Notes under the pieces: generated by a model
What the model was told of the DNA's origin: nothing
The model's database searches: none
Seen by the model: only the letters and a program-made list of their open reading frames with translations
Translations under genes and position numbers: made by a program
Source of the DNA: Mobula hypostoma
Lineage: Eukaryota
NCBI RefSeq assembly: GCF_963921235.1
Contig: NC_086097.1
Coordinates: 73,472,001-73,536,000 of the forward strand
Length of the DNA: 64,000 bases
Reading direction: 5' to 3'
Shown here: positions 33,642 through 56,376 of the stretch, one piece after another
Layout: every line of letters starts with the position of its first letter
Position numbering within the stretch: position 1 is the stretch's first letter

Positions 33642-34785
33642 AATTATTTCATTGATTGTTCTTATTTTACTTATGTAGAGTTCTAAATAGAGACACTGAC
33701 ATCTTCTGATCAGATGACCCAGTCCATATATGGCAGTTAGGTGGGCAGGTTTTAATAAAAATTAGGGAACTCTATGCACAATATTTTCCTAAGCAAAAAA
33801 TCTTTGCATGTTCTATTTAGAACTACTAATTGAACTGATAGGGCACCACTTCTACCACACCTGGGATGAAGGAGTGTTTTCTATTCTCTGCTGATTAGTC
33901 ATATCTTCTAGGCTATCACACCAATGGGAAATAACTTCTTGTATTCTATCAATCCTTTCACAATGTTAAAAAAAAGTCACATTTAATCTTAATGTACTGT
34001 ATTTCAGGAATACAAGTCCAGGTTATGTGCCCATTTTTCAGTGCTTTAATAAAATTGGGGTGAAAATCCACTGAAAATTGTTTATTATTTTCAGAATGCA
34101 TAATAACAATCAATTTTTTTAATACAAGAACTCCTGTTTCAAAGGCTGACATCTCCCCTGAATGTATGAGCTAAGGGTCCTTCATTATAAAGTGCAACAA
34201 TAGTAACAAATTGACCCCAGATAGCAAGGAGACAAATTCATGAGTTTGCCCAAATATCTAAATTCTTGGAGTTGATTTTGCACAAAATTGAGCAAATATT
34301 TCAGTGTTGTATCCTTCCATGTATGGATTATTCAAGAATTTCTTGACCATGGACTGAATACAGATCACGGTGAGGGGAGGAAGACAACATATAACAATAT
34401 CAAAATTATACACAATAGATTAGATGTTAAACATGATATTCCTTGGATGGTTCAGAAAATGGCTATATTTTGCACCCATCCCAAGTACTGCCTCTGCTTT
34501 CTACAGCTGATCAGCTTGCCCATCCTCCCCATGAGAGACAAGGTGATGCGGGTGTGCTCGGATGAAAGGACAGAGTCTGTCCAAATAGGGCTTGATGCTT
34601 TACATCATGAACATTGGTCGGCATGTGTGCGTCAAATTTAAGGAAAACCTGAAATGTTAACACTTTTTGTGACAGGAGTATTATGAGAAATCTCATGGTT
34701 TTATTAATTAACTTTAATTAATCCAAAATTTGAAGGCACGTTGTGGAAATGCAAGAAGAAAATTGATGCGAGTTGTACATGTTAC

Positions 34786-34929
34786 TCATACGTAAGTGGT
34801 ACATCTGACCTCTTGGAGAATATGAATCCTTGCTTCTGTGGGAATGCCGAGTTTTTGCAGATTATTCTCATCCAAGTAAGGAAGCTCTGCGAGACTGATG
34901 CCAGCATTTTCAAACAATGGAGCGAAGTG
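34786..34929 (-). CDS. Terminal coding exon of a SAM-domain protein
   Basis: Acceptor tttgcactttgctcccag; HFAPLFENAGISLAELPYLDENNLQKLGIPTEARIHILQEVRCTTYV* fits SAM helices 2-5; AATAAA on the minus strand at 34700-34705; phase 0 matches exon 46017-46074. Confidence 0.85.
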   Translation of the reverse strand, partial: HFAPLFENAGISLAELPYLDENNLQKLGIPTEARIHILQEVRCTTYV

Positions 34930-37900
34930 CTGGGAGCAAAGTGCAAATTCAGGGTATTAAACAAAGATTGGAAGTCTATAATTAAACAATGTGAAACTAC
35001 AGCTTTATTCCTCAGACAGGAGACATCAAAGAAATTCCAAGACATCTGGATTGTTAAAGATCAAAATGCTATTGAATCTTCTGAAGCGAGTTACGATTTA
35101 TATATCCTTTACATGAAGTTTACGAAATTGAAAGAGTCGTACAACAAGTGAATCCATTATCTTAGTGCCTTGGTTCAATGTTTGTCTGTGAATTCCTGCT
35201 TCTGGTTTATGGGGAAGTGTTATTGCTGCGCTCATTAAATCTATGCAACTCGGGATATATTTAATGAGTGCAGCAATGTCAATACAAACTGGTATCTACA
35301 AGACGAGTTGTGGTTGGGTAATGTTTGCACCAACCACGCCCCTTATTCATGTACAATATCTACCTTTCTCTCCGTTCTTTGCTGGAATGGATTTCAAATT
35401 ACAGCCTGAAAGTGAAGTGCCCTCAATTTCATTCTATCCTTTTGGTCAAGGTGCACTCTAATATCGGAATTGGAAATATGGACTTGCCTCTTTTTTTTCC
35501 AATACTTTGTCTTATCAGCATTTCAGGTTTTATTTCATGACGATCCAAAAATGGAAATACATTAGGCATTTCCATATCCTGACTTTTTCTTTTAAATGGG
35601 CTAAATTTTCAATGTATTTTACCAATGTAAAACACTGTATGCATTAAGCAGCAGGTGGCACTGGAGTGCAGCAACATTTAGCTGCCTGCAAGTCTGTAGA
35701 GTGATAGTAGCTACAAGATCGTAAAATATCACAGTGGGCACAGGAACCTGCCTTTTCAAGGACAGATTCATTGAAGGCAAATAAATTATAGTCATCTACT
35801 CAGAGGATATTTAAGAGAAGGATTAATCACACACAGAATAAACAGAGAAGCTGCCAGAAAACTACTCTATGTCACAAAAGGTTTAGTGTCCAACATTGGC
35901 AATCAAATTGTACATTAGACTATCATGGGACAGTTACTTGACCAAACACGAGACAGGCCAATGAAAATTGGTACAACCTCACTTAAGTTGCATAGCAATG
36001 CAGGAATCCATTAAACAGAGTTCAAAATTTGTATCTTCTTTCAGATGCAATGACCAACATTAAAAATGCTGTTCTTATATATTAGGCATGACTTAGAATA
36101 GCTATATAACAGTGAGGTAAGTTATTCATTCATTAAATGACTGAGTCTTTGCTGCCATCAATCATTCTCTCTGATATTAAAGAGACTATTATAACTACAG
36201 TGCCACATTCTTGCAGTTTAATTGTACATTTGCTTTTAAAATGATTAACATCTCTGTCTTATCTTCCTGTTTTCCCTCTGTGCTAATGGTCACCACTGAT
36301 GCAAATAACCAATTCCAACCTGCATTTTCTTAGTTCCTTTGCATTAATTTAAGGGTTAGATAGATGGTCCTCAATGCTGTACAACTTGCTGGCACACATA
36401 CAACCACTTACATATGAAATGTTCTCAAAATTCTAGAGTCCTATCTTTTTAAGCGCCAGCAGTTAATTGCTTGATCATCAGACAGTTAGAGTCTGTTTCT
36501 CGGGCATCTCCAACTCTCCACGGATCCCGTCACAGTGACATTAATTTCTACTGTTTCATACACAGTTTGGAAGCAGAAGAGCAGGGAGACAGAACAAAAA
36601 AATATTTCAACACTCCTGCTAAATATTTTCCATTCCACTTCCTGTGTAAACTATGTAAATTCATGGCAATACTTTTATTTTTATCAGCTTTGCTGAGGCT
36701 AGCAGAGGGTGAAAACTGCAATGATCCATTTCAAATGACAGAATTATTCAAACAGTAATTCAGAGATACATGATAACAAAGAAGAACACAGTGGTATTTA
36801 ACTAACAAACTATTCCTAAAATCTGAATAAAATTATTTTTGATCCCTGCAGATGACTCCAGACATCATAGACTTGAGCTTCCTGTGAATGGGTCCACACA
36901 AACTACTCAAATCACTGAACATAAAGAACTTGGCAGATCAATGAACATTGACCAAACCTCAGGAAAAACCATACACGTGCCTGTCAGCAACAAAGCTCTT
37001 TGCACAAACAGCTGAGAACTTTGTATCTACAGTACATCTGTCATAAAATCATACCTTCAATCAATCTCACATCTCATTATCCCTGGCTGTTATCAATTGA
37101 TAACCAAAGCTTGCAGTATGAGGAGACAGAAGCCTTACAGATCTGAGAACAAAGCAGCAGCTAAACCAGAGGCAAAAAAATCTACTCTCTCTGATGACCA
37201 ACTGGCCTTTCTCAGGAATAAAGAATTTGCCCAGCATGCTCAACAAATTTTGCACAGACAAGTTAGCTGACCATCTTCTTGTAGGCAGCTGCCAGGTCAA
37301 TAACATGGAAGCCTGATAACAGCACCACCACATGAAGTATTTTGCAGGGCTTGGTGCATCTGCCAGCAGGTTGTGTGAAAACCATACGAGAATTCAGCCT
37401 ACATGAACATCCAAGACCTGCTCAGCCCTGTATCATCACAGCTTGTTATCACCACTCCCACCATCTCAGCAACTCCCTCCATTATGTAAGAAAAATAAAA
37501 TTGGACACAATACACCATAGGCAATTAGACCAATGCTCAATACAATTGCTTCTACATTCAAATCCTCTCGTAATGCAGGCCAGTCAACCATTTCTCCTCC
37601 TAGACTTGCTATGCTGAAATGGTGGCATCCAATAGCTTGCCCCAAGGACACCCAGGTCTCTTTGAACATCAATAATATCTCAGCATTGCTACTTTACTAG
37701 TACAGCAAAATATAACTTCATACTTTTCCATCTTAACATATGTTTGAGGCCTCTTTACAACCTCACCCCATTTAGCATCATCCACAAAACATGAAAGAAT
37801 GACATTTGGCCCCTTTAAATCTGCCCTGTACATCATGAACAGCAAGCCCAGAGTGCAAACTCTAAACTCATACAACCCCACTCATTCTACTCATACACTG

Positions 37901-38084
37901 AATCCTATTTTATGTTCTCCTACTGTGTCGATGAACATTAAAAGCCTCCTGAAGATCCACATCGGCATGTTCCATTTATTCATTCTACACTGTACATCTG
38001 GAAAGAACTCCAGCACATTAGTTAAACATGAGGCCAGAGGTCTGTGAGTGTCAAGGAGCAGGAGTGAGTGCTATTGCTATTACA

Positions 38085-38585
38085 AAGTGCTAGGCAAACT
38101 CAAAGGTCTTAAAGTGGATAAGTCACCTGGACCAGATGGACTACATCCCAGAGTCCTGAGAGACATTGCTGAAGAGATAACAGATACATTGGTCATGATC
38201 TTTCAAGAATCACTTGATCTGGCATGGTTGAAAATCTGGACGATTGAAAATGTTACTCCACACTTTAAGAAGGGAGAAAGGCAAAATGAAGGGAATTATA
38301 AACCAGTGAGCTTAATCTCAGTGGCTGGGAAAGTGTTGGAGTCTATTATTAAGGGCAAGGTTTTGGGTTACTTGGAGAGTAATGATAAAATAAGTTAAAG
38401 TCAGCATGGTTTCTGTAAAGGGAATTTGTTACTGACAAATCTGTTAGAGTTCTTCGAGGAAGTAACAAACAGGGTGGACAAAGGAGAGGCAGTAGGTACC
38501 ATTTACTTGGATTTTCAGAAGGCATTTGATAAGGTGCCACACATGAGACTGCTTAACAAGATAAAATCCTGTGGCATTACAGGCT
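38085..38585 (+). mobile_element. CR1 RT fragment
   Basis: KSPGPDGLHPRVL, YLDFQKAFDKVPH. Confidence 0.9.
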
Positions 38586-39789
38586 TAATGAAAAGAAATG
38601 GGGTGTTAGCAATCTGGCCATTGTGTGAATGGGCCAGATTTGGGTGGAGGTAAAGGGTGCTGCACCTTCTTGAATCATTTAGTTGATTGCAGAATTTGAG
38701 CTTAAGAAATTAGAGCCAAAGGTATAACAAGTGCAAGCAGGATGGTAATTGAGACAATGGAATGCTCCTCCTGCGAGATGTGGGATTGCAGGATACCTAA
38801 CAGTTTCCCTGATGATGATATGTGCAAGTGCACCCAACTTCAGCTCAAGTGACAAGGTCAAGGAACTGGAGCTAGATGTGGATGTACTCAGGACCATCCA
38901 GGAGGCTGAAAAGCTCAAAGACGTGACTTTTACCGATGTGGTCAAATCCCGAGCACAGGCTTCAGAAAGTAGATGGGTAACCACTTGGAGGAGTAAGGGG
39001 AGTAAATAGGCAGCGCGGGGTTCCCCTGTGACCATTGCTCTCAGTAACAAGTATACCCCTTCAGATACTGCTGGCCGGGGCGGGGGGGACAGGTGACCTA
39101 TCAGAGCACAGTAGCAGCAGCAGCCACTGCCAGACCCGTGACCCTGTGGCTTGTTCCAAGGCTCAGCAAGGAAGGGTAAAGTCAGGCAGAGCGATAGTGA
39201 TATGAGACTCGAGTGTTAGGGGGACAGGCAAGATATTCCGTGGCTGCGAAGATGACACCAGGGTGGTTTGTCACCTCCTGGCAGCTAGGATTCAGGATGT
39301 TTCAGAGCGGCGACAGAATATTCACAAGACAGAGGGTGAGCAGCACAAAGGCATGGGTAGAAAGCGGGAAGAGGTCCTGTACAGGGAGTTAGGAAAGAGA
39401 CTGAAGAGCGGGACCTCTAAGGTAGTAATCTCTAAATTACTCCCAGTGCCATATGCTAGTTAAGGTCAGGAATAGGCTGACAGTACGGATGAATGAGTGG
39501 CTGAGGAACTGGTGCAAGGAGAAAGGGTTTCAGATTCTTGGATCATTGGAACTGGTTCTGGGGCCGGGGTGACCTGTACAAGAAGGTCAGGAGGGGAGCC
39601 AATATTCTGGCAGGGAAGTTCAGCAGTGCTACTAGGGAGTGTTTAAATTAGTCTGGCAGAGGATGGGATCCAGAGCATCCGTTCAGAAAGTGGAGGGATG
39701 GTGAGAAATATAGATGTCAGGGTCAGTAAAAACAGGCAGGTGCAAAGTCATAGATATGATGAGACAGATAGTTCGAAGTAGAAGTAACA

Positions 39790-40385
39790 ACATTATTCAT
39801 AGAGCACTTTTCAGTCAGATGATGTAGTTCAAAGTGCTTTACAATGGGACAAAAGTACAAACATGAAAATAAAAGACAAAAGATGTTAGTTAAAAGCAAG
39901 CTTAAATGAACAGGCTTTGAGCTGTCATTTAAAAGTGTCAACCGAGTCTGCATCCCTTATAATTTTAAGTATTGACTTCCTCAGTTTAGGAGTGTAGTTC
40001 ATAAAAGTTGGCCTGCCAATTATCTTTTGTAGCAGATTGTCTAAATTTAAGAGACTGGCAGAAGAAGACCTGAGAGCTTAAGCAGGGTTACAAAGCGAAA
40101 ACGATTCTGTGATGTACTTCAATCACAAACCTATAAGAGCTTCAAAAACAAGCAAAATAACTTTAAAATCAATTCTAAGAGGTACAGGAAGCTAATGCAG
40201 AGTAGCTAGGATGGGAGTGATATGTTCTGTCATCCTGGTTTTGAGTACAAGTCTAGCAGCAGCATTCTGAGTGAGTTGAAGATTTATTTGGAGCGTTTGA
40301 AAAAAGTGCATTGCAGTAATCTAGTCTATTTGATATAAAGGTGTGAATTAGTTTTTCAGCATCGTTGTGTGACAGAAATGAATGT
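39790..40385 (-). mobile_element. L2-like LINE 3' fragment
   Basis: Antisense L2-type 3' stem-loop (tgtaaagcactttgaactac...aaaagtgctctat) and RLDYCN-like region; sister copy at 46755-48005. Confidence 0.7.
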
Positions 40386-40884
40386 GTGCATGTCTGTGTG
40401 TATGCATGCGTGCGTGAGCGTTTATTTAAATACTAGGAGTATTATGGGTAAAGGTGATGAACTTAGAGCATGGATCAGTACATGGAACTATAACGTTGTG
40501 GCCATTACAGAGATCTGGTTGAGAGGGGGATGGGAATAGACACTTAATGTCCCAGGGTTTGATCTTTTAGAAAAGATAGCAGGGAGGTAAAAGAGGTGGG
40601 GGAGGGACAATATCACAGTTGCACTCAGAGGGGACTGAATGCAGTAGGATAAAATTCAGAAACAGGAAGGAAGTAAACTCTGTTGGGATTGTACTACAGA
40701 CACTCCAATAGCCATAACAACATTGAAGATCAGATATGCTGGCAGATTAAGGAAAGGTGTAAAAATAATAGGGTCATTGTCGTGGGGGACTTCAGCAATA
40801 TAAACTGGGACCTTCCGAGTGCAAAATTTGTTAGGTGAATCCAGGAGGGCTTCTTAAATAAATACATAGATTGTTCAACAATAA

Positions 40885-41682
40885 GAGGACCTTGCACTCA
40901 ATGTCAGCAAAACCAAAGAGCTGATTGTGGACTTCAGGAAGGATAAGATGAGGGAACACAAACCAATTCTCAGAGGGATCAGAAGTGGAGAGAGTGAGCA
41001 ATTTCAAGTTCCTGGGTGTCAAATTTCTGAGGACTAACCCTGGATGCAACACATTGCTGCAGCTATAAAGAAGGCAGGACAGTAGCTATATTTCATTTGG
41101 AGTTCAGGAAGATTTGGTTTTGTCAACAAAAATACTCAAACCCCTACAAATGTACCGCGGAGAGCATTCTGACTGGCTGCATCACCATCTGGTATATTGG
41201 GTGGGGGGAGGGGGGGGGCTACCGCACAAGATCAAAATAAGTTGCAGAAACTTGTAAAATTAGTCAGCTCTGTCATGGGTACCAGCCACCATAGTATCCA
41301 AGACATCTTCAACATCTTCAACGAGTGGTGCCTTAGGAAGTTAGAATCCATCATTAAGGATCCCACCAGCCAGGACATGCCCTCTTCACATTGGTACCAT
41401 CAGGAAGGAGTTACAGAATCCTGAAGGCACAAACTCAGTGATTTAGGAACAGCTTCTTCCCCTCTGCCATACGATTTCTAAATGGACGTTGAACTCATGA
41501 ACACTACATTTCTACTTCTTTGTTTCTGTTATTCTGCACTACTTATTTTAACTTAACATTTAACAAACATTTATTTACTTAACATAACTCTATTTTTGGT
41601 TTCTCTATATTTATTAATCATGTATTTCATTGTGTTGCTGCAGTAAAGATAACAAATTTCACAACATATTAAATCTGATCGA
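40885..41682 (+). mobile_element. Rex1/Babar-type LINE fragment
   Basis: LNVSKTKELIVDFRK, VERVSNFKFLGV, ESILTGCITIWY, NSFFPSAIRFLN. Confidence 0.85.
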
Positions 41683-43844
41683 TTCTGAAGAAAAGGAGCT
41701 GTACTGGACCTGGCTTCGGGTACTGAGCTTGGCCAGATGACCAACAATTGGGGAACAATGACCACAACTCCTTAAGTTTTAAGATCACTATAGATAGTAG
41801 GTATGGACCTGCAGGAGAATTTGAAATTGGAACAGGGCAAATTAGCAGAGCATTAGGCAAGAACTAGGAAGAGTTAATTGGGAAGTCCTGTTAGTGGGAA
41901 AGTCCATATCTGATATGTGGAGTGTGTTTAAATACTAACTACACAGAATGCAGGACACGTCTGTTCAAATAAGAAGGAAGGACAAAGATGGCAAAGTAAG
42001 AGAACCTTGGATGTTGAGAGAGGTGATGAATTTAGTCAACAAGAAAAGGGAAGTATGTAAAGGAAGCAAGAAGCCAGAAAATAACTCAAGAATGCAATTT
42101 GGAAACCCAGGAACAGCTACAAAAAGTCCTTGGCAAGTAGCATTAAAGACAATTCCAAAGCATTTTAGGCATACATCAAAAGCGAGGAGGTGGTGTTGGG
42201 TCTCTTGAATAGCAATAAAATGGATAAGTCCCTGAGGCCTGATGGGATATAATCCAGGTCATTAAGAGAGGCAAGAGAAGAGATTACTGGGGCCTTCACC
42301 AATATACTTTTACCCTATCTAGCAACAGGCAATGTCCCTGAGGATTAAAGAGTAGCTAATGTTGTTCCATTATTCAAGAAAGGAATCAGGGATAATCCTG
42401 GAAACTGTAGACCTGTGAGTCTCATATCAGTGGTAGCAAAGTTACAGGAGATAATTTGCAGGGATAGGATTTACGAGCATTTGGAAAACCATGGCCTAAT
42501 TAGGTAGAGCCAGCCTGGCTTTGTGCAGGACATGTCCTGTTTTACTAATTTAAGGCTCAGTTTTTTGAAGAGGTGATGAGGGTGATTGATGAAGGTAGAG
42601 CTATTTATGTTGCTTACATGGATTTAAGTCAGGCATTTGATAAGGTCACTCATGGGAGGCTCATCCAGAAGATAAAGATGCATGGGATCATTGGTGAAAT
42701 GGCAATTTGGATTCAGAACTGCCTTGCCCGTAGATGACAGAGGATGATGGTCAAAGGGATTTATTCTAGATGGACCTCTGTGATTAGTGTTGTTCCACAG
42801 TGATTTGTACTGGGACATCCGATGTTTGTCATGTATATAAATAACCTGGATGCAAATGTCGATGGGTGGGTTTGTAAGCTTGCAGATGAATAAAGATTGG
42901 TAGCGTTCTGTATAGCGCAGAAGACTGGCAAAGAATGCAATGGCATATTGATCAGCTGCAGGTATGGGTGGAGAAATGGCAGGTGGAGTTTAACCTGGCC
43001 AAATGTGAGGTGTTGTACTTTGGTAGGGCAAATACAAACAGACAGTACACTGTTAATGGCAAGATTCTTAACAGTGTTGATGAACAGAGGGACCTTGGCA
43101 TCCAAGTTCATAGCTTCTTGAAAGCAGCCACACAGGTTGATAGGGGGGGGTTTAGAAGGCATATGGCATGCTTGTCTCTATTAGTCAAGGCACTGAGTTC
43201 AAAAGTCATGTTGCAGCTCTGCAGAAATCTTATTAGTCTGTATCTGGCATATTGCATACATTTCTGGTCACCACACTTTTGGAAGGATGTCGAGCCTTTG
43301 GAGAGGGTGCAGAAGAGGTTTACTAGGATGTTGCCTGGAGTAGAGGCCATGTACTATCACAAGAGGTTGGACAAACTTGGGTTGTTTTCTCTGGAGTGGT
43401 AGAAGCTGAGGGGAGATCTGATAGACATTTATAAGGTTATGAGAGGCACAGATAGATTAGACAGACAGTATCTTTTTTCCAAGGGTTGAAATGTCTAATA
43501 CCAGAGGTTGTGCATTGAAGGTGAAAGGGGGTAATTTCAAAGGAGATGTGAGGGGCTATTTTTAAAAACACAGAGTGGTAGGTGCCTGGAATGCTGTCTG
43601 GGGTGGTCGAAGAGGCAGAAATATTAGTCACTTTTAAGAGACATTTAGATAGGCACATAATTGTGAGGAAATTGGAAGGATACAGACATTGGGTAGGAAG
43701 AAAAAATTAATTAAGTTACAAATTGATTACTAATTTAATTGGTTTGGCACAACATTGGGGGCTGTAGGGCCTGTTCCTGTGCTATGATGTTCTATATTCT
43801 ATTAGCCTTTTTTCAGTGGTGGGCATGTTGCTCGCCGCGATTCT

Positions 43845-45750
43845 GAGGGGCAGGATCTGTCAGTATTTGGATATACAAGAACTCGTTGGGGGTAGTTAGC
43901 ACAACTTTGTGCATGTTAGAATGCTTCAAGGAGGTAACCAACACAGTTGATGAGTCAGGGAGGTGGACTTTCGCAAGGCTAAAGGATCCACACAGAACAC
44001 CACTCTGGAAGATGAGATTGCACAGGACCTATGGAGAGCTGGTTCAGTGTCTTGATGGTGGAAAGCAGAGGCTGATGGTGGAAAGTTGTTTCCTGGATTG
44101 GAGGCTAGTTATTTATAATGTGCCATAAAGACTAGTGCTGGGCAAGTTATTGGGTATCATTTATGAAAACCATTTTGATGAGAATGTGCAAGGCATGATT
44201 AGTAAATTTACAGATGACATTAAAATAGATACTACCATAAACAGTAAACTAAGTCATCAAAAACTACAGGAGTTTGGGAGATCAAACCAGGGTAGAGCTT
44301 CCACAATAAGTGATAAGGCCCTGGTGAGTGTTGTGGAATGGACAGACATTGGAGTACAAGTACATATTCCTCTGAATGTGGCATCGCAGGTAGACAGGGA
44401 AGTAAAAAAATGTCTAGGTACACTGCAACACAGGACATCCTCCTGTGGAATGAGGAAAGGCAAATGGTGGATGTGTCTGCCAGACAGCAGTTTGGCTCCA
44501 GTTACCAGAACTCTGTTAGTTTTAAAATAGCAATGCAGAAAGGTACAGCAGATTCACAGGTTAAAGTCCTGAACTAGAATAAAGTTTGGAGTTGTTAGGC
44601 AGGATCTTGCAGCAATTGATTGGACAAGTTTGCTTGCAAGGGAAAGAATGTCTTCCAAGTGGGAGGCCTTTAGAAGTGCGAGGTGAAGATCTCAGCGCCT
44701 ACATATTCCTGTTACGGTGATGGGCAAAGTGAGGCAAAATCCCAAGAGGTTCTATAGGAATATTAAAAGCAAAAGGGTGGTTAGGGAGACAATAGGTCCT
44801 CTTAAAGATCAGCATGGCTGTCTGTGTGTGGAACCAAAGGAAATAAGTAAGGTTTTTAATGAATTTTTCTCTTGTTTTTACTATGGAGAAATGATGGAAG
44901 CTAACAAAATACGGGAAATGAGTGTTTTTGGCTCAGACAAAGCCTTTAATAAGGTCCTTCATGGCAAGCTAGTATGAAAGGTCCAGGAAAAGACGGAATT
45001 GATTTACAATGAGCTCAGTGGTAGGATGCAAGGGATGATGGTTGAGGATTGTCTCTTGGACTGGAGGCCAATGTCTATTGCTATGCCACAAGAATTGGTG
45101 CTGGGCTTCTCTTATTTGTAATTTATATTGAAAATTTGTATGTTAAATATACAAAACATGGTTAGTACTTTGCGGATGATACCAACATAGGTGGGGTTGT
45201 AGATAATGTAGCACATTAAGAAAAATTACAGGGGAATCTTAATCATCTAGGTGTATTGGTGAATGGCTTTCATACCAGAAAAAAATGGTACATATTGCAT
45301 TTTGGGAGGTAGGACTTATACAGTGAAGGGTAGGGCCCTGTGGAGTGTTGAGGTACAGAGAAGCCTAGGAGTGCAAGTGTATAATTCACTGAAGGCAGCA
45401 TCATGGTTAGATAGAGTGATGGAGATGATGTTTGGCACATTGGTTTTCTGCCAGGGCACTGAGTATAGTAGTTGGGGAATTATGTTAGAGTTATGTAAGA
45501 AACTGATGAGGCCACATTTGGAGTAATGTATACAGTTTTGGTCACATTGTTATAGGAAAGATGTTATTAAACTAGAAAAAGAACATAAAAGATTTGCCAG
45601 GATGTTCCCTGGACTCGGGGGTCTGAGATACAAGGAGAGGTTGTGTAGATTGGGACTTCTTTCCTTGGTTTGTATAAGACTAACAGGTGACATGAGTTAT
45701 AGAAGATTATAAGGAATACAGATGGTTTTTTTCCCGGGGATGAGTTGGGC
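43845..45750 (+). mobile_element. Cluster of old CR1 fragments
   Basis: SKFTDDIKI, NPKRFYRNIKSKR, KAFNKVLHGKL, RPHLE motifs in broken frames. Confidence 0.75.
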
Positions 45751-46016
45751 CAAAGGACCCACTTCCACACTGTCTGACTGTATATCACAAAGGAAACTCC
45801 ATAGGTAATCTGCATGTGGTACTTTGTCCAGAAAGGAAATATGACAGTGACAATGATTGAGAAATTAATAGTTATAAAACTTTTCCAACTATCCACCTTC
45901 CAGCTCTACAGAATATTTCCAAATTTATTTTGATCCATTATACTCTCAGGAAATTACATACAATTCCTCAACAGTTAATAATATTTATCCCTAAGCAACC
46001 ATTGTTATATGATTAC

Positions 46017-46074
46017 CTCATATCCTAATTTCTTCAGAAACATTGTCATGATTGAAGGCCTTTCTCCACAATAC
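46017..46074 (-). CDS. Internal exon (58 nt) of the SAM-domain gene
   Basis: ttttgtttgttttcag acceptor, GAG|gtaatc donor; phase 2 to 0; YCGERPSIMTMFLKKLGYE supplies SAM helix 1. Confidence 0.85.
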
Positions 46075-46293
46075 CTGAAAACAAACAAAATCGTAATCAT
46101 AAAAACATGTTGAATCAGGTAAAGGGCAAAGCTGTAGACTTTTTAAAAAGCATATATTAATAATACTGCTCAATGAACAATTCTAATTTAAATACACATT
46201 TTTATTAGCATGGGGTAAACTATGTGTACAGTCAGATTTCTATGTATTAAGTCAACTTGGTATACTGTATCCATAACAATTTCATTCATAAAC

Positions 46294-46371
46294 CTTGAAC
46301 AGTGGACACCTAGTGTATTTTTATTGACAATAATTGCATCTTGGTATAAAAACAGAAAATCCTCAAATAAT
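46294..46371 (-). CDS. Internal exon (78 nt) of the SAM-domain gene
   Basis: tttgtttcattctgctcag acceptor, AAG|gtttat donor; phase 2 to 2; LFEDFLFLYQDAIIVNKNTLGVHCS(R) joins the next exon in frame. Confidence 0.7.
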
Positions 46372-46754
46372 CTGAGCAGAATGAAACAAAGTTTACATTT
46401 CAGGCCGTCCATATTCTTCATGTTCAGCAGTTGTAATCCATTTTCTTAGAGAACAGTTGTTAAGATTGTTCTCTAACGAAAAGAATTAGCAGAATTAACA
46501 TTAGTGTTTGGACCAATATTTATTCCTCAATTCCCATCACTAACTTATCACTTTCAGATAATACGTATAAGCTGCTTCTGGACTAAAAGGGTCATCAGTG
46601 ATTACAATTCAAGAGATTTGTATTTTGTTAAAGACATGAAATGCATTTACATAAATGCAAGTCTTTTTCTGAATCAAGGTCATCAACACAAATTATTAAT
46701 TATGTCTCCCGCCCTAGAGATGCTATCTGATATATTTCTATATTAAAACAATGT

Positions 46755-48005
46755 TACAGAGCACTTTTCATACCAATGATGTCACTCAAAGTGCTTCACA
46801 ATGGGATAAAAGTACAAACATAAAAATAAAATAAAAAATAAAAATAAACATGAAAATAAAAGATAAAAAGATGTTAGTTAAATGCAAGGTTAAATAAATA
46901 GGTTTTTGAGCTGGTGTTTAAAAGTGTCAGCTGAGTCTGCATCCCCTATGGTTTTAGGTTTTGAATTCCACAGTTTAGGAGCTTAGTTTAAGAAGACTGC
47001 CCTGCCGATTATCTTTTGAGGGAGATCGTTTAAATTTTAAGAGAGTGTTGAAAGATGACCCAAGTACTCAAGCAAGATTATAAAACAAAAACAATTATTT
47101 GATGCTCCTGTCCCAGACTATTAAGAGTTTTAAAAACAAGTAATATAACTTTAAACTGGCAGCAGTCTGAGGGTAGCAGACACCAACAGAATCAACAAAC
47201 TCATTTGTAAGGCCAGTGATGTTGTGGGGATGGAACTGGATTCTCTGACGGTGGTGTCTGAAAAGAGGATGCTGTCTAAGCTGCATGCCATCTTGGACAA
47301 TGTCTCCCATCCACTACATAATGTACTGGGTGGGCACAGGAGTACATTCAGCCAGAGACTCATTCCACCGAGGTGCAACACAGAGCGTCATAGGAAGTCA
47401 TTCCTGCCTGTGGCCATCAAACTTTACAACTCCTCCCTTGGAGGGTCGGACACCCTGAGCCAGTAGGCTGGTCCTGGACTTATTTCCTGGCATAATTTAC
47501 ATATTACTATTTAACTACTTATGGTTTTTATTACTATTTATTATTTATGGTGCAACTGTAATGAAAACCAATTTCCCCCTGGATCAATAAAGTATGACTA
47601 TGACTATAAAGATACAGGAAGCCAATGCAGGGTTATCTAGGGTGGGAGTGATACGTTCCTTCATTCTGGAGCAGCAGCAACATTCTGAATGAGTTGAAGT
47701 TTGTCAATAGATTGCTTTGAAAAGACAGTCAGAAGTGCTTTGCAGTAACCTACTCTATTCAATATGAAGGTGTGAATTATTTTTCAGCATCATTACATAA
47801 CAGAAACGAACATACTTTTGCAATATTTTTAAGTGTAAAAATGCTCTTCTGGTCACTTTATGTGGGATTTAAAATTCAAATCTAAATCAAGGATAACACC
47901 CAGGGTAACTACTTCTAATTTTACAAAGGGAACCAAGTCCCCAAGTTTATCAAGAAGTTTATCTCTTTTGGCTTTGGGACCAACCAAAAGAATTTCATTT
48001 TCTAT
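46755..48005 (-). mobile_element. L2-like LINE 3' fragment interrupted by a Rex/Babar insert
   Basis: Co-linear with 39790-40385 on both sides of 47155-47607. Confidence 0.75.
47155..47607 (+). mobile_element. Young Rex1/Babar-type 3' fragment
   Basis: ILDNVSHPLH...RCNTERHRKSFLPVAIKLYN; aataaagtatgactatgactat tail. Confidence 0.85.
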
Positions 48006-49630
48006 GATTTTCTGGTTTTATTTCAGATTTTCAGCATCTGCAACATTTTTTTAAAAAATATGTTTTGTTCTCTGGTGACCATCAAATAGAATTCAATTTC
48101 TCTTAAATAATTTAAACCTCCCATGCATTACAGAATTCATTATATGACTAAGCAAGAAGGATAACATTTCAATGTAACTAAGTTCAAATTACAGGATATA
48201 ACTACCACTGATTAACAGCATCATTCTTATTAATAATATAACAAATAGCATTGTCCTTTAGGGAAATTTGAACAGTGATAGCAGATACAAGCAGCTATGA
48301 GCAAAATTAAATTTCAGGAATATCATTGATATTATTGAACTTTATCAATACTACCGACATTAGACATGGTATTAAAACTCATATTCTGCCATCATTAGGT
48401 TGTAAACAATAACCGAACAATGACACACAGAAATTACACACCAAAAGTCAATGCTGGGTCCAATATAAACGATCTAGATTACAATCCAATTGACATGGTT
48501 GGTAAGTTTGTGGATGACACCAGAATTGTTGAAGCGCAATGAAGAATTCAATAGGACCGAGATCAACTGATACAGTAACCCAAGGAGAAAGAAATGAATT
48601 TTGATAAGTTAACCAGGGCAGGACTTACACAGCAATTGGTAAGGCCGAGCGAGTGTTGTCAAGCAACACATCCAGACAGGTTGGTGAAGAAGTTATTTGA
48701 CACACTTCCCATTATTAGTCTGGGCACAGAGTAGAGGATTTGGGACTTTGTGTTACAACAGTACAACTCATTGGTCATACCTACCTGAAGAGTTCCACAT
48801 AGTTCCAGTCACTAAGCTCCAGGAAGGATGTCATTAAGCTGGAAACGGAACATTGTGAGCACCAAGTGGAGCAGATGATGCTGCAAGTGAACCTCTGCCT
48901 CACCTAGGAGGGCTGTTTAGTGGTAAGGGAGGAGGAGAAGACACAGCTGTCACACCTTGCAGTTACAGGGAAAATACCAATGCAAGGAGAGGGGTGGGTA
49001 AAAAAACTGACACATGCAGATGTGTGTCAGAGATCACCAACTACTTTTTCCAGGGATGGCTAATAATATTGCCTCCTTTAAATGAAACCAACAAGCAAAA
49101 ACAGCAGGTGCCTTTTCTCAGAACACAGACTTCCCTATGGTAGAAGGGGCCATTGATTGAATACAAAACATCTTCTAAAAAAATGCACAAAACAACCACA
49201 GCAAAACAAGACCAGTCACTCCTTCCTACACACCCAGCCACACACTCACATACACAGTCCTCTAACCCCAGTAATGGCAATCTTCAGCAGATTTGTTGTT
49301 TCGCAGACACTGGGCCTCAATTTTCCTGGCAGACTCTCAAAATGCTGAAGCAGAATCTGGAATCCTGAAGGCCAAAAATCCAGACAAACGGTACAGAACA
49401 GCTCAAAGATCATCAACAGCTCACAGACCATCAGGCACCACCTGCTGCATCCTCTGGAAGGGTCTGCCAGGCTCACTAGGGGCTCATTAAACACATCAAA
49501 TTAAACAGTGGAAATCAGTCATCTTCAATCCCACAAGACTTTCTAAGAAGATGATGATTCTGACATTGTTGTGTCTGTACAACTATATACCAAATAAATG
49601 AAGGCTTGCACTCGGAGAAGTTAACTGCTA

Positions 49631-50184
49631 CAGTGCCTCTAATAAGTATTCGCCCTCCCCTGGAAGTTTTCATGTTCTATTGTTTTACAACATTGAATCA
49701 CAGTGGATTTAATTTGGCTTTTTTTTGACACTCCAACAGTGCGTTGGAGTGTTTTGTGTCAAAGTGAAAATAGATCCTACAAAGTGATCTAAATTAATTA
49801 CAAATATAAAACAAAACAACTGATTGCATAAGTATTCACCCCCTTTAATATGACACACAAAATCATCACTGGTGCAGCCAAGTGGTTTTAGAAATCACAG
49901 AATTATTTAAATGGAGATCACCTGTGTGCAGTCAAGGTGGTTCAATTGGTGTACAAACTACACCATGAAGACAAAAGAGCACTCCAGGCAAGCCTGCAAA
50001 AAGGTTATTGAAAAGCACAAGTCAGGAGATAGATACAAGAAAATTCCAAGTCACTGATTATCCCTTGGAGTACAGTTAAGTCAAGCATCTAGAAATGGAA
50101 AGAAAAAATGAAAAAAAATTAAATCCACTATGATACAATGTTGCAAAACAATAAAACATGAAAACTTCCAAGGGGGGAGAAATA
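49631..50184 (+). mobile_element. Internally deleted Tc1-like transposon in the Gypsy 3' LTR
   Basis: TA|CAGTG start; transposase N-terminus MKTKEHSRQ...VIEKHKSG; 50110-50184 is the reverse complement of ~49647-49715; the extreme right end is missing. Confidence 0.85.
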
Positions 50185-50615
50185 GATCCTTACATTACAC
50201 TTCCTCCCCCTCTTTAGAGTAATATAACAAACTGTATATGTACAAAACATTCAATTTCCCCTTTAGAAGCCTTATTCAAGTAAACATACTTTCACAATAA
50301 CAGTCCATAACTAACTTCACTAAAGATTCAGTCTTTTGGGTGGCACTCCATTTCTTTCAGGATAGCGCCTTTGGACCTGCGGGGTGGCATCAGGACGGCT
50401 GGTGTCTTGTCAAAGACAACGGTCTCACGTTGCTGTTGGTGACATAATCATCATCACTGAGAGGCAAGTCTGGTGCCTGTAATGTGTCCATCTTGTTGGA
50501 TGCAATCAACTCAAGTGTGTTCTTCAGCTGAACATTCAGTATCTGGTCCACATGACATCTCCATGTATGATCTCCAACATCCACTGTGTACATCAGTGTC
50601 TAGTATACCTGTACA

Positions 50616-51024
50616 CCTCTACTGCCGTGATGAGGCTAAACTCAGGTTGGAGGAGCAACACCTCATATACCGTCTAGGTAGTCTCCAGCCCTTTGGTATG
50701 AACATAGAATTCTCCAACTTCCAGTAATTCCCTCCCCCTCCCTTCCTCTATCCCTATTTCACCCTGCCCCCTCCCCCAGCTGCCTATAACCTACCTCATG
50801 GTTCCGCCTCCTTCTTCTGCTACCCATTGTTTTCCTGCCTATGACGTCGATGCTTCCCCTCCCCCACCCCTTTGTCTTTCAAATTACTGGTCTTTCAACC
50901 GAACCTACAAGTATTCTTCAAATCCTTCCCCCTCCTTCATTCTTGAGTCCTGACAAAGGGTTCCAGCCTGAAACATCGACTCATCGTTTCCACTGATGCT
51001 GCCCGACGTGCTGAGTTCCTCCAA
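50616..51024 (+). mobile_element. Penelope 3' fragment with mutated hammerhead
   Basis: LYCRDEAKLRLEEQHLIYRLGSLQPFGMNIEFSNF*; hammerhead-like motif at 50945-50982. Confidence 0.9.
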
Positions 51025-51309
51025 GTGATACCTGTAACTATCCTACTGGGTGTCCACTTGTCTTCACAGTAATCATGTGCTAGTTCTATTTTAATTTCAT
51101 CAGTCCACAGGACTTGTTTCCAAAATGCATTAGGCTTGTTCAGATGTTCCTTTGAACCTTTCAAATAGAACTTTTTGGCTGCAATCAGCAAAGGTATGTT
51201 TGGAGAAAAAAGGGTGCAGAATTTCATGAAAAGAATCCCTCTCCAACTGTTAAGTACGGGGTAGATCAACCCATGCTTTGGGCTTGTGTTGGCACCAGTG
51301 GCACGGGGA

Positions 51310-53638
51310 ATGGATTCCTGTCACAGTATGTTGACAGGCCGACTAGGGGGAATGCCATACCAGATCTAGTATTAGAAAACAAACCGGGTCAGGTCACAGA
51401 TCTCTCAGTGGGTGAGCATCTGGGGGACAGTGACCACCACTCCCTGGCCTTCAGCATTATCATGGAAAAGGATAGAATCAGAGAGAACAGGAAAATTTTT
51501 TTACTTGGGGAAGGGCAAATTATGAATCTATAAGGCTAGAACTTGCAGGTGTGAATTGGGATGATGATTTTGCAGGGAAATGTACTATGGGCATGTGGTC
51601 GATGTTTAGAGATCTCTTGCAGGATTTTTAGTGATAAATTTGTCCCGGTGAGGAAGATAAAGAATGGTAGGGTGAAGGAACCATGTGTGACAAGTGAGGT
51701 GGACAATCTAGTCAGGTGGAAGAAAGCAGCATACATGAGATTTAGGAAGCAAGGATCAGATGGGTCTATTAAGGAATATAGGGTAGCAAGAAAGGAGCTT
51801 AAGAAGGGGCTGAGAAGATCAAGAAGGGGGCATGAGAAGGCCTTGGCGAGTAGGGTAAAGGAAAACCCCAAGGCATTCTTCAATTATGTGAAGAACAAAG
51901 GGATGACAGGAGTGAAGGCAGGACCGATTAGAGATAAAGGTGGGAAGATGTGCCTGGAAGCTGTGAAAGTGAGCGAGGCCCTCAGTGAATACTTCTCTTC
52001 GGTATTCACCAATGAGAGGGAACTTGATGACGGTGAGGACAATATGAGTGAGGCTGATGTTCTGGAGCATGTTGATATTATGGCAGAGGAGGTGTTGGAG
52101 TTATTGAAATACATTAGGATGGATAAGTCCCCGGGGCCTGACGGAATACTCCCCAGGCTGCTCCACGAGGTGAGGGAAGAGATTGCTGAGCCTCTGGCTA
52201 GGATCTATATGTCCTCATTGTCTATGGGAATGGTACCGGAGGATTGGAGGGAGGCGAATGTTGTCCCCTTGTTCGAAAAAGGTAGTAGGGATAGTCCAGT
52301 AAGCCTTAGGTCTGTGGTGTGAAAGCTGTTGGAAAAGTTTCTTAGAGATAGGATCAATGGGCATTTAGAGAATCATGGTCTGATCAGGGACAGTCAGCAT
52401 GGCTTTGTGATGGCCAGATCGTGTCTAACAAGCCTGAGGGTTGTTTGAGGAAGTGACTAGGCATATAGATGAGGGTAGTGCAGTGGATGTGATCTATATG
52501 GATTTTAGTAAGGCTTTTGACAAGGTTCCACACGGCAGGCTTATTCAGAAAGTCAGAAGGCATGGGATCCAGGGAAGTTTGGCCAGCTGGATTCAGAATT
52601 GGCTTGCCTGCAGAAGGCAGAGGGTTGTGGTGGAGGGAGTACATTTAGATTGGAGGGTTGTGACTAGTAGCGTCCCAGAAAGATCAGTTCTGGGACCTCT
52701 ACTTTTCGTGACTTTTATTAACGACCTGAACGTGGGGGTAGAAGGGTGGGTTGGCAAGTTTGCAGACGACACAAAGGTTGGTGGTGTTGTAGATAGTGTA
52801 GAGGATTGTCAAAGATTGCAGAGAGACATTGATAGGTTGCAGAAGTGGGCTGAGAAGTGGCAGATGGAGTTCAACCCAGAGAAGTGTGAGGTGGTACACT
52901 TTGGAAGGACAAACTCCAAGGCAGAGTACAAAGTAAATGGCAGGATACTTGGTAGTGTGGAAGAAAAGAGGGATCTGGGGATACATGTCCACAGATCCCT
53001 GAAAGTTGCCTCACAGGTAGATAGGGTAGTTAAGAAAGCTTATGGGGCGTTAGCTTTCTTAAGTCGAGGGCTAGAGTTTAAGAGTCGCGAGGTAATAATG
53101 CAGCTCTATAAAACTCCGATTAGGCCACACTTGGAGTTCTGGTCGCCTCACTATAGGAAGGATGTGGAAGCATTGGAAAAGGTGCAGAGGAGATTTACCA
53201 GGATGCTTCCTGGTTTAAAGTGTATCGATTAAGATCAGAGATTAAGGGAGCTAGGGCTTTACTGTTTGGAGAGAAGGAGGATGAGCGGAGACATGATAGA
53301 GGTATACAAGATATTAAGAGGAATAGATAGAGTGGATAGCCAGCGCCCCTTTCCCAGGGCACCACTGCTCAATACAAGAGGACATGGCTTTAAGGTAAGG
53401 CATGGGAAGTTCAAGGGGGATACTAGAGGAAGGTTTTTTACTCAGAGAGTGGTTGGTGCGTGGAATACACTGCCTGAGTCAATGGTGGAGGCAGATACAC
53501 TAGTGAAATTTAAGAGACTACTAGACAGATATATGAAGGAATTTGAAGTGGGGGGTTATATGGGAGGCGGGTTTTGAGGGTCGGCACAACAATGTGGGCC
53601 GAAGGGCCTGTACTGTGCTCTACTATTCTATGTTCTAT
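51310..53638 (+). mobile_element. 5'-truncated CR1 inserted in the Tc1 transposase
   Basis: LGDSDH, KSPGPDG, YMDFSKAFDKV, FADD, FFTQRVVGAWN; tail ctattctatgttctat; Tc1 sequence resumes at gaacatt (53639). Confidence 0.95.
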
Positions 53639-54129
53639 GAACATTTACTGGTAGAGGGAAAAATGAATTCAATTAAATACCAGCAAATTCTGGAAGCAAA
53701 CATTACACTGTCTGTAAAAAAGCTGAAGATGAAAAAGAGGATGGCTTCTACAACAGGATAATGAACCTAATCACACCTCAAAATCCACAATGGACTACCT
53801 CAAGAGGTGCAAGCTGAAGGTTTTGCCATGGCCCTCACAGTCCCCTGATTTAAACATCATCGAGAATCTGTGGATAGACCTCAAAAGAGCAGTCCATGCA
53901 AGGCGGCCCAAGAATCTCACAGAACTAGAAGACTTTTGCAAGGAAGAATGGGCGAAAATCCTCCAAACAAGAATTGAAAGACTCTTATCTGGCTACAAAA
54001 AGCATTTGCAAGCTGTGATACTTGCCAAAGGGGGTGTTACTAAGTACTGCCATGCAGGGTGCCCAAACTTCTGCTTTGGGCCCTTTTCCTTTTTCGTTAT
54101 TTTGAAACTGTACAAGATGAAAATAAAAA

Positions 54130-56376
54130 ACACAAAATACTCCGCAGATGCTGGGATCAAAACAATACTCACAACAGCTGGAGGAACTCAGAAGGTCTGG
54201 TAGCATCCGTAGAAACGATCAATCAACTTTTCGGGCCGGAACCCTTCGTCAGGACTGAAGAGGGAAGGGGCAGAGGCCCTATAAAGAAGGTGGGGGGAGG
54301 GTGGGAAGGAGAAGGCTGGTAGGTTCCATGTGAAAAACCATAAGGGGAAATTAAAGGGGTGGGGAAGGGGAAGCAGGGAGGTGATAGGCAGGAATGGTGA
54401 AGAAGGAATAGAGGAAAACAAAATAGGTAGTAGAAGGAGGCGGAACCATGAGGGAGGTGGTAGGCAGCTGGGGGAGGGGGCAGAGTGAAATAGAGATAGA
54501 GGAAGGTAGGGGGAGGGAATTACCGGAAGGTGGAGAATTCTACGTTCATACCAAGGGGCTGGAGGCTACCCAGACGGTATATGAGGTGTTGCTCCTCCAA
54601 CCTGAGTTTAGCCTCATCATGGCAGTAGAGGAGGCCATGTATGGACATATCTGAATGGGAGTGGGAAGCAGAGTTGAAGTGGGTGGCTACCGGGAGATCC
54701 TGTCTGTTGTGGCGGACGGAGTGGAGGTGCTTGACAAAGCGGTCCCCCAATCTGCGTTGGGTTTTACCGATGTAGAGAAGGCCATATCGGGAGCACCGGA
54801 TGCAACAGGTGACCCCAACAGACTCACAAGTGAAGTGTTGCTTCACCTGGAAGGACTGTTTGGGGCCCTGAATGGTGGCAAGAGAGGAGGTGTAGGGACA
54901 GGTGTAGCACTTACGCTTACAGGGATAAGTGCCTGGTGGGAGATCCGTGGGGAGGGACGTGTGGATCAGGGAGTCGCAGAGGGACCGATCCCTGCAAAAA
55001 GCGGAGAGGGAAAGATGTGCTTAGTGGTGGGGTTCTGTTGAAGGTGACGGAAGTTGCGGAGGATAATGTGCTGGATCTGGAGGCTGGTGGGGTGGTAGGT
55101 GAGGACAAGGGGAACTCTGTCCCTGTTGTGGTGGTGGGAGGATGGGGTGAGGGCTGAAGTGCGGGAAATGGAAGAGATGTGGGTGAGGGCATCATTGATG
55201 ACGGCAGAAGGGAAACCACGATCCTTAAAGAAAGAGGACATTTGAGATGCCCTGGAACGAAAAGCCTCATCCTGGGAGCAGATGCGGCAGAGACGGAGGA
55301 ACTGGGAATAGGGAATAGCATTTTTGCATGTGGCAGGGTGGGAAGAAGTATAGTCCAAGGTAGTTATGAGAGTCAGTAGGCTTGTAGAAGATGTCAGTGG
55401 ACAGTCTGTCTCCAGAGCAGGAGACTGAGAGATTGAGAAAGGGGAGAGAAGTGTCCGAGATGGACCAAGTGAATTTGAGGGTTGGGTGGAAGTTTGAAGT
55501 AAAGTCGATGAAATTGATGAGCTCAGCATGGGTGCAGGAAGCAGCACCAATGTAGTCGTCAATGTACCGAAGGAAAAGTTGGGGAGCAGTACCAAAATAG
55601 GTTTGGAGCACAGACTGTTCCACACAACCAACGAAGAGGCAGGCATAGCTGGGGCCCATGTGAGTTCCCATAGCTACACCCTTAGTCTGAAGAAAGTGGG
55701 AAGAGCCAAAAGAGAAGTTATTAAGTGTGAGTACCAGTTCCGCCAACCAGAGGAGGGTAGTCGTGATGGGGAACTAGTTGAGGTCTATTGTCCAGAAAGT
55801 AGCAAAGGGCTTTGAGGCCTTCTTGATGGGGAATGGAAGTGTATAAGGATTGGACATTCATAGTGAAAATGAAGCCTTCGGGACCGGGGAACTGGAAGTT
55901 ATTGAAGAAGTGGAGGGCATGGGATGTATCCCGGATGTAAGTGGGGAGGGACTGAACTATGGGTGACAAAATGGAGTCCAGGTAAGCAGATACAAATTCG
56001 GTGGGACAGGAGCAGGAAGAAACTATGGGTCTACTGGGACAGTCAGGCTTGTGGATCTTGGAGAGGAGGTAAAACGGGGTGTGGGAATTATGAGTTTAGC
56101 GGTTGAGGATGGAAGGTCTCTGGAGTTGATGAGGGCAGTGATGGTACGGGAGACGATGGTTTGATGTTTTTTGGTGGGGTCCTGTTCCAGGGGTAAGTAA
56201 GAGGAGGTGTCAGAGAGCTGCCATTTGGCCTCAGTGAGGTAGAGGTCCGTCTGTCAGACTACTACTGCACCACCTTTGTCAGCCGGTTTGATGGTGAGGT
56301 TGGGATTAGTGCAGAGAGTGGAGGGCAGCGGGTTCGGAGGGAGTGAGGTCGGAACAGGAGAGAGGAGTGGTGAAGT
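54130..56376 (-). mobile_element. 5'-truncated Penelope-like element (Neptune type; RT plus GIY-YIG)
   Basis: SLYTSIPH, GVAMGTHMGPSYA, RYIDD, linker GTYPCKRKCYTCP, GIY-YIG (CIRCSR..LYIGKTQRRLGDRF.KH); 12-bp duplication TGAAAATAAAAA at 54118-54129 and 56377-56388. Confidence 0.95.
54220..54257 (-). ncRNA. Minimal type I hammerhead ribozyme motif, stem III altered
   Basis: CAGTC-CTGACGA-AGGG-TTCCGG-CCC-GAAA-AGTT-GATTG. Confidence 0.65.

What the first reader, a model, noticed from the sequence alone, without database searches (positions are those of the whole stretch)
34786..46371. Hidden spliced gene: unrecognised SAM-domain protein ending in a PDZ-ligand-like motif
Seen: three minus-strand exons with canonical AG/GT ends and matching phases (78 nt, 2-2; 58 nt, 2-0; 144 nt terminal) splice to LFEDFLFLYQDAIIVNKNTLGVHCSRYCGERPSIMTMFLKKLGYEHFAPLFENAGISLAELPYLDENNLQKLGIPTEARIHILQEVRCTTYV*, with AATAAA about 80 nt past the stop. 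The ORF track misses it because an 11-kb intron splits the SAM domain. Established: the FL..LG.E.F...F....I....L..L....L..LGI....R..IL pattern is a sterile alpha motif, and S/T-x-V at the C-terminus is a class I PDZ ligand; Eph receptors and USH1G/SANS also end in SAM plus a PDZ ligand. Inference: I do not recognise this as any mammalian SAM protein, so it may be an uncharacterised family kept in cartilaginous fish. The 5' exons seem to lie beyond the window.
Basis: partly seen in the sequence, partly recalled or inferred. Interest (0 to 1): 0.7.

Follow-up and report, generated by a model that had tools for sequence, protein, structure and literature searches.

The report
Ray SAM gene of ancient family
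These are the last two exons of a devil-ray gene that databases already predict but do not name; it encodes a probable scaffold protein of an old, unstudied animal family shared with insects, and in stingrays its self-assembly surface carries an unusual change.

Summary
The gene is real, but it is not hidden and not shark-specific. The 58-nt and 144-nt minus-strand exons match RefSeq LOC134357276 of Mobula hypostoma at 66 of 66 residues (728/757 aa, uncharacterised). The last exon passes Pfam SAM_2. The protein has a poorly conserved N-terminus, a helix, a coiled coil, the SAM and a T-Y-V end. Helix, coiled coil and SAM are shared with arthropod and priapulid proteins (369 hits; homology holds without the SAM). 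No bony-vertebrate member appeared in the hits I could see, but loss is not shown. A glycine at the start of SAM helix 5, present in 118 of 118 protostome rows and in sharks and skates, is glutamate in all four stingray-group species; the same change stops the plant Tric1 SAM from polymerising. Best reading: an oligomerising PDZ-docking scaffold, inferred and untested.

The parts
46017..46074 (-). Penultimate coding exon (58 nt, phase 2 to phase 0): SAM helix 1 and the G-E-R-P motif before it; residues 663-681 of XP_062925009.1
   Evidence: 19 of 19 identical in tblastn; AG/GT ends; donor in the top 3% of minus-strand GT sites
34930..46016 (-). 11,087-nt phase-0 intron inside the SAM, holding repeats; the same position appears to be an intron in protostome members
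   Evidence: GT..AG; read-through ORF P0051 is interrupted at this point and 13 of 35 aligned hit proteins have unrelated sequence ending in Q just before it
34786..34929 (-). Terminal coding exon (144 nt with TGA): SAM helices 2-5 and the T-T-Y-V end
   Evidence: Pfam SAM_2 26.6 bits; 100% identical to P0003; a 2,217-nt contig of run X3 fits 34705-34929 and leaves the window's sequence at the acceptor
34834..34836 (-). GAA (Glu) codon at the start of SAM helix 5, where the rest of the family has Gly
   Evidence: same column as Tric1 G241E
34062..34785 (-). Probable 3' UTR with a proximal AATAAA (34705-34700) and a distal AATAAA (34086-34081)
   Evidence: hexamers; contigs of runs X1, X2, X3, X5 cover parts of 34062-34931, and those of X2 and X5 cross the proximal signal (the runs are only guessed to be RNA)
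46294..46371 (-).
   Evidence: absent from all elasmobranch models, weak donor, 1 of 10 like segments
46075..64000 (-). Upstream intron, at least 17,926 nt, running off the window; no earlier exon of the gene lies here
   Evidence: tblastn with 2 and with 15 orthologue models and exact 5/6-mer scans find no earlier exon

Best explanation
The stretch is the 3' end of LOC134357276, a one-copy elasmobranch member of an unnamed, ancient bilaterian family with the layout: long poorly conserved N-terminus, short helix, coiled coil, C-terminal SAM, hydrophobic end (shown, about 0.95). It most likely works as a non-catalytic scaffold (inferred, about 0.55): the coiled coil pairs the chains, the SAM joins other SAMs head to tail through its end-helix and mid-loop faces, and the last residues dock in a PDZ domain, so that partners bound to the long N-terminus are clustered at a membrane or junction. 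In sharks and protostomes the G-P-R start of helix 5 is intact and the SAM may form oligomers. In Mobula and other stingrays the glycine is glutamate, which should block the end-helix face and leave a SAM that binds through one face only (inferred by analogy with Tric1).
For: Identity to RefSeq 66 of 66; orthologues in 10 elasmobranch species whose tree groups skates and stingrays as expected (9 rows). A profile built only from 120 non-elasmobranch rows scores all 11 SAM-stripped elasmobranch proteins at 29.8-58.7 bits; the best of 179 scored shuffles (of 200) reached 8.1. Conservation among elasmobranchs peaks at 0.74-0.81 over residues 551-650 of P0007, above the SAM at 0.55. AlphaFold gives a helix at 2-23, one long helix at 45-116 and five helices at 144-200 of the 202-aa M. 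birostris fragment; 13 of 16 a/d positions are hydrophobic in the best of seven registers, the next best 9 of 16. Foldseek's top rows are all SAM domains, rmsd 1.0 A over 51 columns. Only SAM passes Pfam cut-offs in 9 full-length proteins, so no enzyme domain is seen. Terminal V in 110 of 120 non-elasmobranch rows and 9 of 10 elasmobranch species, although the tail before it varies in length. Helix-5 Gly in 118 of 118 rows; Tric1 Gly241Glu at the same column removes the helical superstructure (passages of 10.1101/2023.11.19.566349). A SAM followed by a PDZ ligand binding a PDZ domain is solved for Sans-harmonin (PDB 3k1r title).
Against: No function, location or partner is known for any member; every mechanistic step is analogy. 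The -2 residue is not conserved between groups (T/S in elasmobranchs; C in 77, Y in 38 and S in 2 of 120 others), so a shared PDZ partner is unlikely and the tail could instead pack on the SAM. No Foldseek match reached E 0.001 (best 5.7e-3) and the model's pTM is 0.31. The N-terminal profile of elasmobranchs hits none of the invertebrate proteins among the 54 then fetched. Both Narcine models lack the family's last exon, so the SAM and tail may be dispensable in some rays, or those models are wrong. The closest solved SAM, Tric1, binds RNA, which suggests another use of oligomers.
Confidence: 0.6

Rival explanations
1. The SAM is an RNA-binding oligomer, as in Tric1 or Smaug, and the protein acts in RNA granules; the terminal valine is structural.
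For: Tric1 SAM is the best solved match by profile (E 1.5e-4) and by fold, sharing the L-G-x-E-K-Y and P-x-G-P-R-L motifs; in Tric1 oligomers are needed for RNA binding (passages). A basic linker precedes the coiled coil.
Against: Ste11, tankyrase, ANKS6 and USH1G SAMs score within about 3 bits of Tric1, so the ranking says little. No RNA-binding domain passes Pfam. RNA-contact residues of Smaug-type SAMs were not tested.
Confidence: 0.13
2. The gene is under relaxed constraint in rays: the Gly-to-Glu change, the skate R-to-S change and the Narcine last-exon loss are decay, not a new binding mode.
For: Three batoid lineages depart from the family pattern in the SAM; batoid branches are longer than shark branches in the tree; the Mobula SAM is only 41-44 of 66 identical to three sharks.
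Against: The frame is open and the T/S-Y-V end is kept in 6 of 7 batoid species; the four stingray-group species are 59-65 of 66 identical to M. hypostoma over the two exons, apart from itself; the coiled coil stays highly conserved.
Confidence: 0.15
4. One reading: the 78-nt segment is an alternative cassette exon, or a first exon of a short SAM-only form.
For: Canonical AG and GT, a pyrimidine-rich acceptor equal to those of the true exons by my count (11 of 14), symmetrical phase 2-2 and an open frame; inclusion would keep the frame.
Against: In none of 15 models from 10 species; weak donor; 10 such segments upstream; no homologue among 203 proteins.
Confidence: 0.07

Closest known systems
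RefSeq LOC134357276 (Mobula hypostoma, XP_062925009.1 and isoform X1) and its uncharacterised elasmobranch orthologues
   Same: The two last exons are identical, 66 of 66 residues: this is that gene or its copy in a very close congener.
   Different: RefSeq has no 78-nt exon and gives no family or function.
Unnamed arthropod and priapulid 'SAM domain-containing proteins' (e.g. Tribolium LOC100141693, Priapulus LOC106812520, Centruroides LOC111636727)
   Same: Helix, coiled coil, G-x-x-P motif, SAM and hydrophobic end; homology holds without the SAM; an intron at the same place in the SAM.
   Different: N-termini show no detectable homology; they end C-x-V or Y-x-V, keep the helix-5 Gly, and have an N-P-x-R-V-x-K-L block before the SAM that elasmobranchs lack.
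USH1G/Sans and ANKS4B
   Same: C-terminal SAM followed at once by a class I PDZ ligand; weak SAM match (E 0.0013 and 0.03).
   Different: No ankyrin repeats in this family; it has a coiled coil before the SAM. Works like, not a member.
Eph receptors
   Same: SAM then PDZ ligand at the C-terminus (from established knowledge); SAM fold match only.
   Different: No ligand-binding, fibronectin or kinase domain.
Arabidopsis Tric1 SAM
   Same: Closest solved SAM (E 1.5e-4); the same P-x-G-P-R motif, whose Gly-to-Glu change abolishes the superhelix.
   Different: Tric1 is a plant mitochondrial tRNA import receptor; only the SAM aligns.

Membership tests
SAM domain (Pfam SAM_2 / SAM_1) | Profile score over the curated cut-off | tested here: met
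   SAM_2 26.6 bits for the last exon and 35.6 for P0003 against 20.5; SAM_1 is under its cut-off in Mobula (19.8 of 23) and over it in sharks and skate
SAM domain (Pfam SAM_2 / SAM_1) | Five-helix bundle | tested here: met
   Five helices at 144-200, pLDDT about 80-88; top Foldseek rows are SAMs at rmsd 1.0-1.3 A, though none reaches E 0.001
Polymerising SAM domains | Small residue (Gly) at the start of helix 5 on the end-helix face | tested here: not met
   Glu in the window and in 4 of 4 stingray-group species; Gly in 3 of 3 sharks, 2 of 2 skates, 118 of 118 protostome rows
Polymerising SAM domains | Head-to-tail oligomer in solution or crystal | not testable with these tools
   Needs purified protein
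Class I PDZ ligand | C-terminal S/T-x-hydrophobic (motif definition from established knowledge) | tested here: met
   T/S-Y-V in 9 of 10 elasmobranch species; only 2 of 120 non-elasmobranch rows have S at -2
Class I PDZ ligand | Binding to a PDZ domain | not testable with these tools
   No partner is known
Unnamed coiled-coil + SAM bilaterian family | Homology upstream of the SAM | tested here: met
   29.8-58.7 bits for 11 of 11 SAM-stripped proteins against at most 8.1 for shuffles
Unnamed coiled-coil + SAM bilaterian family | Shared intron position in the SAM | tested here: met
   Inferred from read-through ORFs, not from gene models: P0051 and 13 of 35 hits break at the same point
USH1G/ANKS4B | N-terminal ankyrin repeats | tested here: not met
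   No ankyrin hit in 9 full-length proteins
Eph receptors | Ephrin-binding, fibronectin III and tyrosine kinase domains | tested here: not met
   None
Cartilaginous-fish-specific gene family | No members outside Chondrichthyes | tested here: not met
   Named arthropod and priapulid members
Gene lost in bony vertebrates | Absence from teleost, lobe-finned and tetrapod genomes | tested here: inconclusive
   None seen, but lists were cut or insensitive and no such genome could be searched
Smaug/Vts1-type RNA-binding SAM | RNA-contact residues of the Smaug recognition surface | not tested
   No Smaug-type SAM was aligned

The most novel reading that the evidence does not exclude
This is an unnamed, ancient bilaterian SAM-polymer scaffold family, kept in arthropods, priapulids and elasmobranchs and lost in bony vertebrates. 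In the elasmobranch line its tail switched to a class I PDZ ligand, and the stingray ancestor fixed a Gly-to-Glu change that turned a polymerising SAM into a one-faced chain capper: a natural copy of an engineered polymer-breaking mutation.
Probability: 0.25. Interest if true: 0.5.

Novelty: new member of a known kind. Interest (0 to 1): 0.3.

Why it matters
The gene model itself is on record, and SAM-plus-PDZ-ligand scaffolds are a known kind, so the find is modest. What adds value is the family: hundreds of annotated but unnamed members across arthropods, with a vertebrate branch seen here only in sharks and rays. It can be studied in insects, it is a candidate for an ancient gene lost in bony vertebrates, and the shark (Gly) against stingray (Glu) pair gives a ready natural test of whether SAM polymerisation matters to it.

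Tried and rejected
No whole genome is held for this window, so upstream exons, synteny and copy number could not be read. Sequencing runs: no RNA holder listed; 9 of 10 rows are only guessed to be RNA. Laying 4 of these 10 runs on 33500-53400 was swamped by repeats and the joint table was cut (358 rows not shown), so neither the 46017/34929 nor the 46294/46074 junction was displayed. Depth arithmetic only: run X3's bin 34828-35491 (2.01) equals contig 19 alone (2.01), and its bin 46116-46779 (0.42) is under the 1.54 expected if that contig carried the 78-nt segment; this is lack of cover and is not counted as evidence. Homodimer prediction of the 202-aa M. birostris fragment gave no answer (0.20 against a mark of 0.32; the alignment was not used). 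The PDB sequence search with the last exon alone found only a designed repeat protein. P0018 and P0023 are repetitive proteins without the SAM block and were set aside. Six-residue matches at 63095, 53296 and 11898 are chance or repeat matches. Rfam: no match in the window. Earlier findings of this scan: none by place or sequence. A Drosophila orthologue was not identified: none is among the 120 listed hits, and four SAM gene numbers that I recalled led nowhere (listings only). The whale-shark paper's orthogroup table lists eight SAM-only orthogroups in 10 or fewer of 37 taxa, but the member list (supplement 4) is too large to read and the table was cut when stored, so none could be tied to this gene. 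A prenylation reading of the C-terminal Cys was dropped: it is not four residues from the end and is missing in two of three sharks. Literature: six locus names gave one paper, a table row for the Tribolium member; two topic searches gave nothing on the family.
Full report
Observation. AATAAA lies 81 nt past the stop. The last exon alone passes Pfam SAM_2 (26.6 bits, cut-off 20.5). The window is otherwise repeat-rich intron and intergenic DNA.

What the gene is. The last exon is 100% identical to a 728-aa RefSeq protein, uncharacterised LOC134357276 of Mobula hypostoma. The two last exons match it at 66 of 66 residues, M. birostris at 65, Hypanus 60, Hemitrygon 59, Amblyraja 42 and three sharks 41-44. 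Orthologues occur in 10 elasmobranch species; a tree of 9 of them groups the two skates and the four stingray-group species as expected, with sharks unresolved. A 2,217-nt contig of run X3 fits 34705-34929 and leaves the window's sequence exactly at the acceptor, as a spliced transcript would; the run is only guessed to be RNA and the junction row itself was not displayed. Contigs of two studies cross the proximal poly(A) signal, and one of run X1 ends at 34062, about 20 nt past a second AATAAA at 34086.

The 78-nt segment is probably not an exon. None of 15 elasmobranch models aligns to it; the 14 that reach the 58-nt exon put L or Q before it, both codons that can end in the exon's first G, which fits a conserved phase-2 intron to a different upstream exon. 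That exon is not in the window, so the upstream intron is at least 17.9 kb. The segment's donor is matched or beaten by 20% of 3,454 minus-strand GT sites, and 10 segments upstream meet the same criteria (donor matrix from recalled textbook frequencies). In its favour, its acceptor is as pyrimidine-rich as the true ones and inclusion would keep the frame, so a minor isoform is not excluded.

The family. An index-free search with the last exon gave 39 hits. Eight of the longer ones also match an elasmobranch profile of the region before the SAM (31-48 bits), and those with names are Priapulus, Centruroides, Hypothenemus and Anopheles proteins. A joint profile found 369 proteins among 8,000 candidates; the 120 listed are arthropods and Priapulus where named, all uncharacterised or named after low-complexity matches. 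A profile built from those 120 rows alone scores all 11 SAM-stripped elasmobranch proteins at 29.8-58.7 bits, against at most 8.1 for 179 scored shuffles of 200. Read-through ORFs suggest that the intron inside the SAM is shared: P0051 is interrupted at the same point, and 13 of 35 alignable hits have unrelated sequence ending in Q just before it. The family is therefore bilaterian, not shark-specific. No bony-vertebrate member was seen: all 35 alignable non-elasmobranch hits (of 37) are closer to protostome than to elasmobranch panels, 4 trivially, and the nearest Atlas clusters are arthropod (0.88 and 0.91). This is weak: one search missed even the insect members, 249 of 369 hits were not listed, and no vertebrate genome could be searched.

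Anatomy. About 550 N-terminal residues are 41-67% identical among elasmobranchs per 50-residue block, residues 551-650 are 74-81%, and the SAM about 55%. AlphaFold on the 202-aa M. birostris fragment gives a helix (2-23), a low-confidence basic linker, one long helix (45-116) and a five-helix SAM (144-200); pTM is only 0.31. The long helix has 13 of 16 hydrophobic a/d positions. Foldseek returns SAM domains, best E 5.7e-3, none at 0.001. Only SAM passes Pfam cut-offs in 9 full-length proteins. The terminal V is kept in 110 of 120 non-elasmobranch rows and 9 of 10 elasmobranch species, but position -2 is T/S in elasmobranchs and C (77) or Y (38) elsewhere.

A stingray change. At the start of SAM helix 5 the family has P-L/M-G-P-R, with Gly in 118 of 118 protostome rows (2 of 120 lacked the anchor motif), 3 of 3 sharks and 2 of 2 skates. 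All four stingray-group species have Glu, in the window codon GAA at 34836-34834. The column is that of Gly241 in Arabidopsis Tric1, the closest solved SAM. In passages of bioRxiv 10.1101/2023.11.19.566349, Gly241Glu keeps the fold but removes the six-per-turn superhelix and RNA binding. Passages of PMC6328559 describe SAM polymers as head-to-tail joins of end-helix and mid-loop faces; placing this glycine on the end-helix face rests on my own knowledge. Both Narcine models lose the last exon altogether, which may be loss or mis-annotation.

Mechanism. Shown: gene, domain layout, family, conserved tail. Inferred: the coiled coil pairs chains, the SAM binds other SAMs, and the tail docks in a PDZ domain, clustering partners of the long N-terminus at a membrane or junction, as Sans does with harmonin (PDB 3k1r title). 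In stingrays the SAM would bind through one face only.

Comparison and novelty. It works like SAM-plus-PDZ-ligand scaffolds but is not a member of USH1G/ANKS4B or Eph, whose defining domains are absent. I found no paper on the family in five searches of a library that lacks most subscription papers; the one hit was a table row naming the Tribolium member (PMC11247348, one passage). Of PMC8455134 I saw the abstract start, passages and searches of its supplements: it reports 208 families lost in bony fish and kept in cartilaginous fish, and its orthogroup table holds eight SAM-only groups in 10 or fewer taxa, but the member list could not be read, and it may bear on whether this loss is already tabulated. 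Other papers were seen as listings only. Verdict: a real, already predicted gene; a new member of a known kind; interest 0.3, resting on the unnamed family and the stingray substitution.

Noticed in passing
window 6988-10604, minus strand: Young LINE copy, CR1-like by recall: a 595-aa open frame with RVT_1 at E 1.4e-32, a 216-aa frame after it and an endonuclease-like frame near 9598-10488.
   Followed up: partly
window 51156-53577, plus strand: Second, more broken LINE inside the gene's upstream intron; RVT_1 at E 4.5e-18 for 52438-53232; very high contig depth.
   Followed up: partly
window 53733-54203 and 50937-51320: Tc1-like transposase fragments; DDE_3 at E 1.6e-10 for the first, the second judged by eye.
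   Followed up: partly
window 54520-56095 (minus) and 61215-61688 (plus): Frames that look like Penelope-type reverse transcriptase and GIY-YIG pieces by recall; no Pfam hit at E 0.001 for the three frames tested.
   Followed up: partly
window 56573-57410, minus strand: Fragments that look like a Gypsy-type protease and reverse transcriptase, by eye only.
   Followed up: no
window 46434-46488: A 22-nt inverted repeat, 82% complementary with an 11-nt loop, about 60 nt upstream of the 78-nt segment; may be chance.
   Followed up: no
P0016 and P0017 (Narcine bancroftii): Both models diverge exactly at the last exon boundary and lack SAM helices 2-5: exon loss or an annotation fault.
   Followed up: no
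P0005 and P0006 (Mobula birostris): The orthologue is annotated as two separate proteins, 564 and 202 aa, on one contig; probably a split gene model.
   Followed up: partly
alignment A4 consensus (insect members): Insect N-termini keep short motifs such as D-S-G-R-G-S (like a beta-TrCP degron, by recall) and P-P-L-P-P-L-S-P; not seen in the elasmobranch alignment.
   Followed up: no
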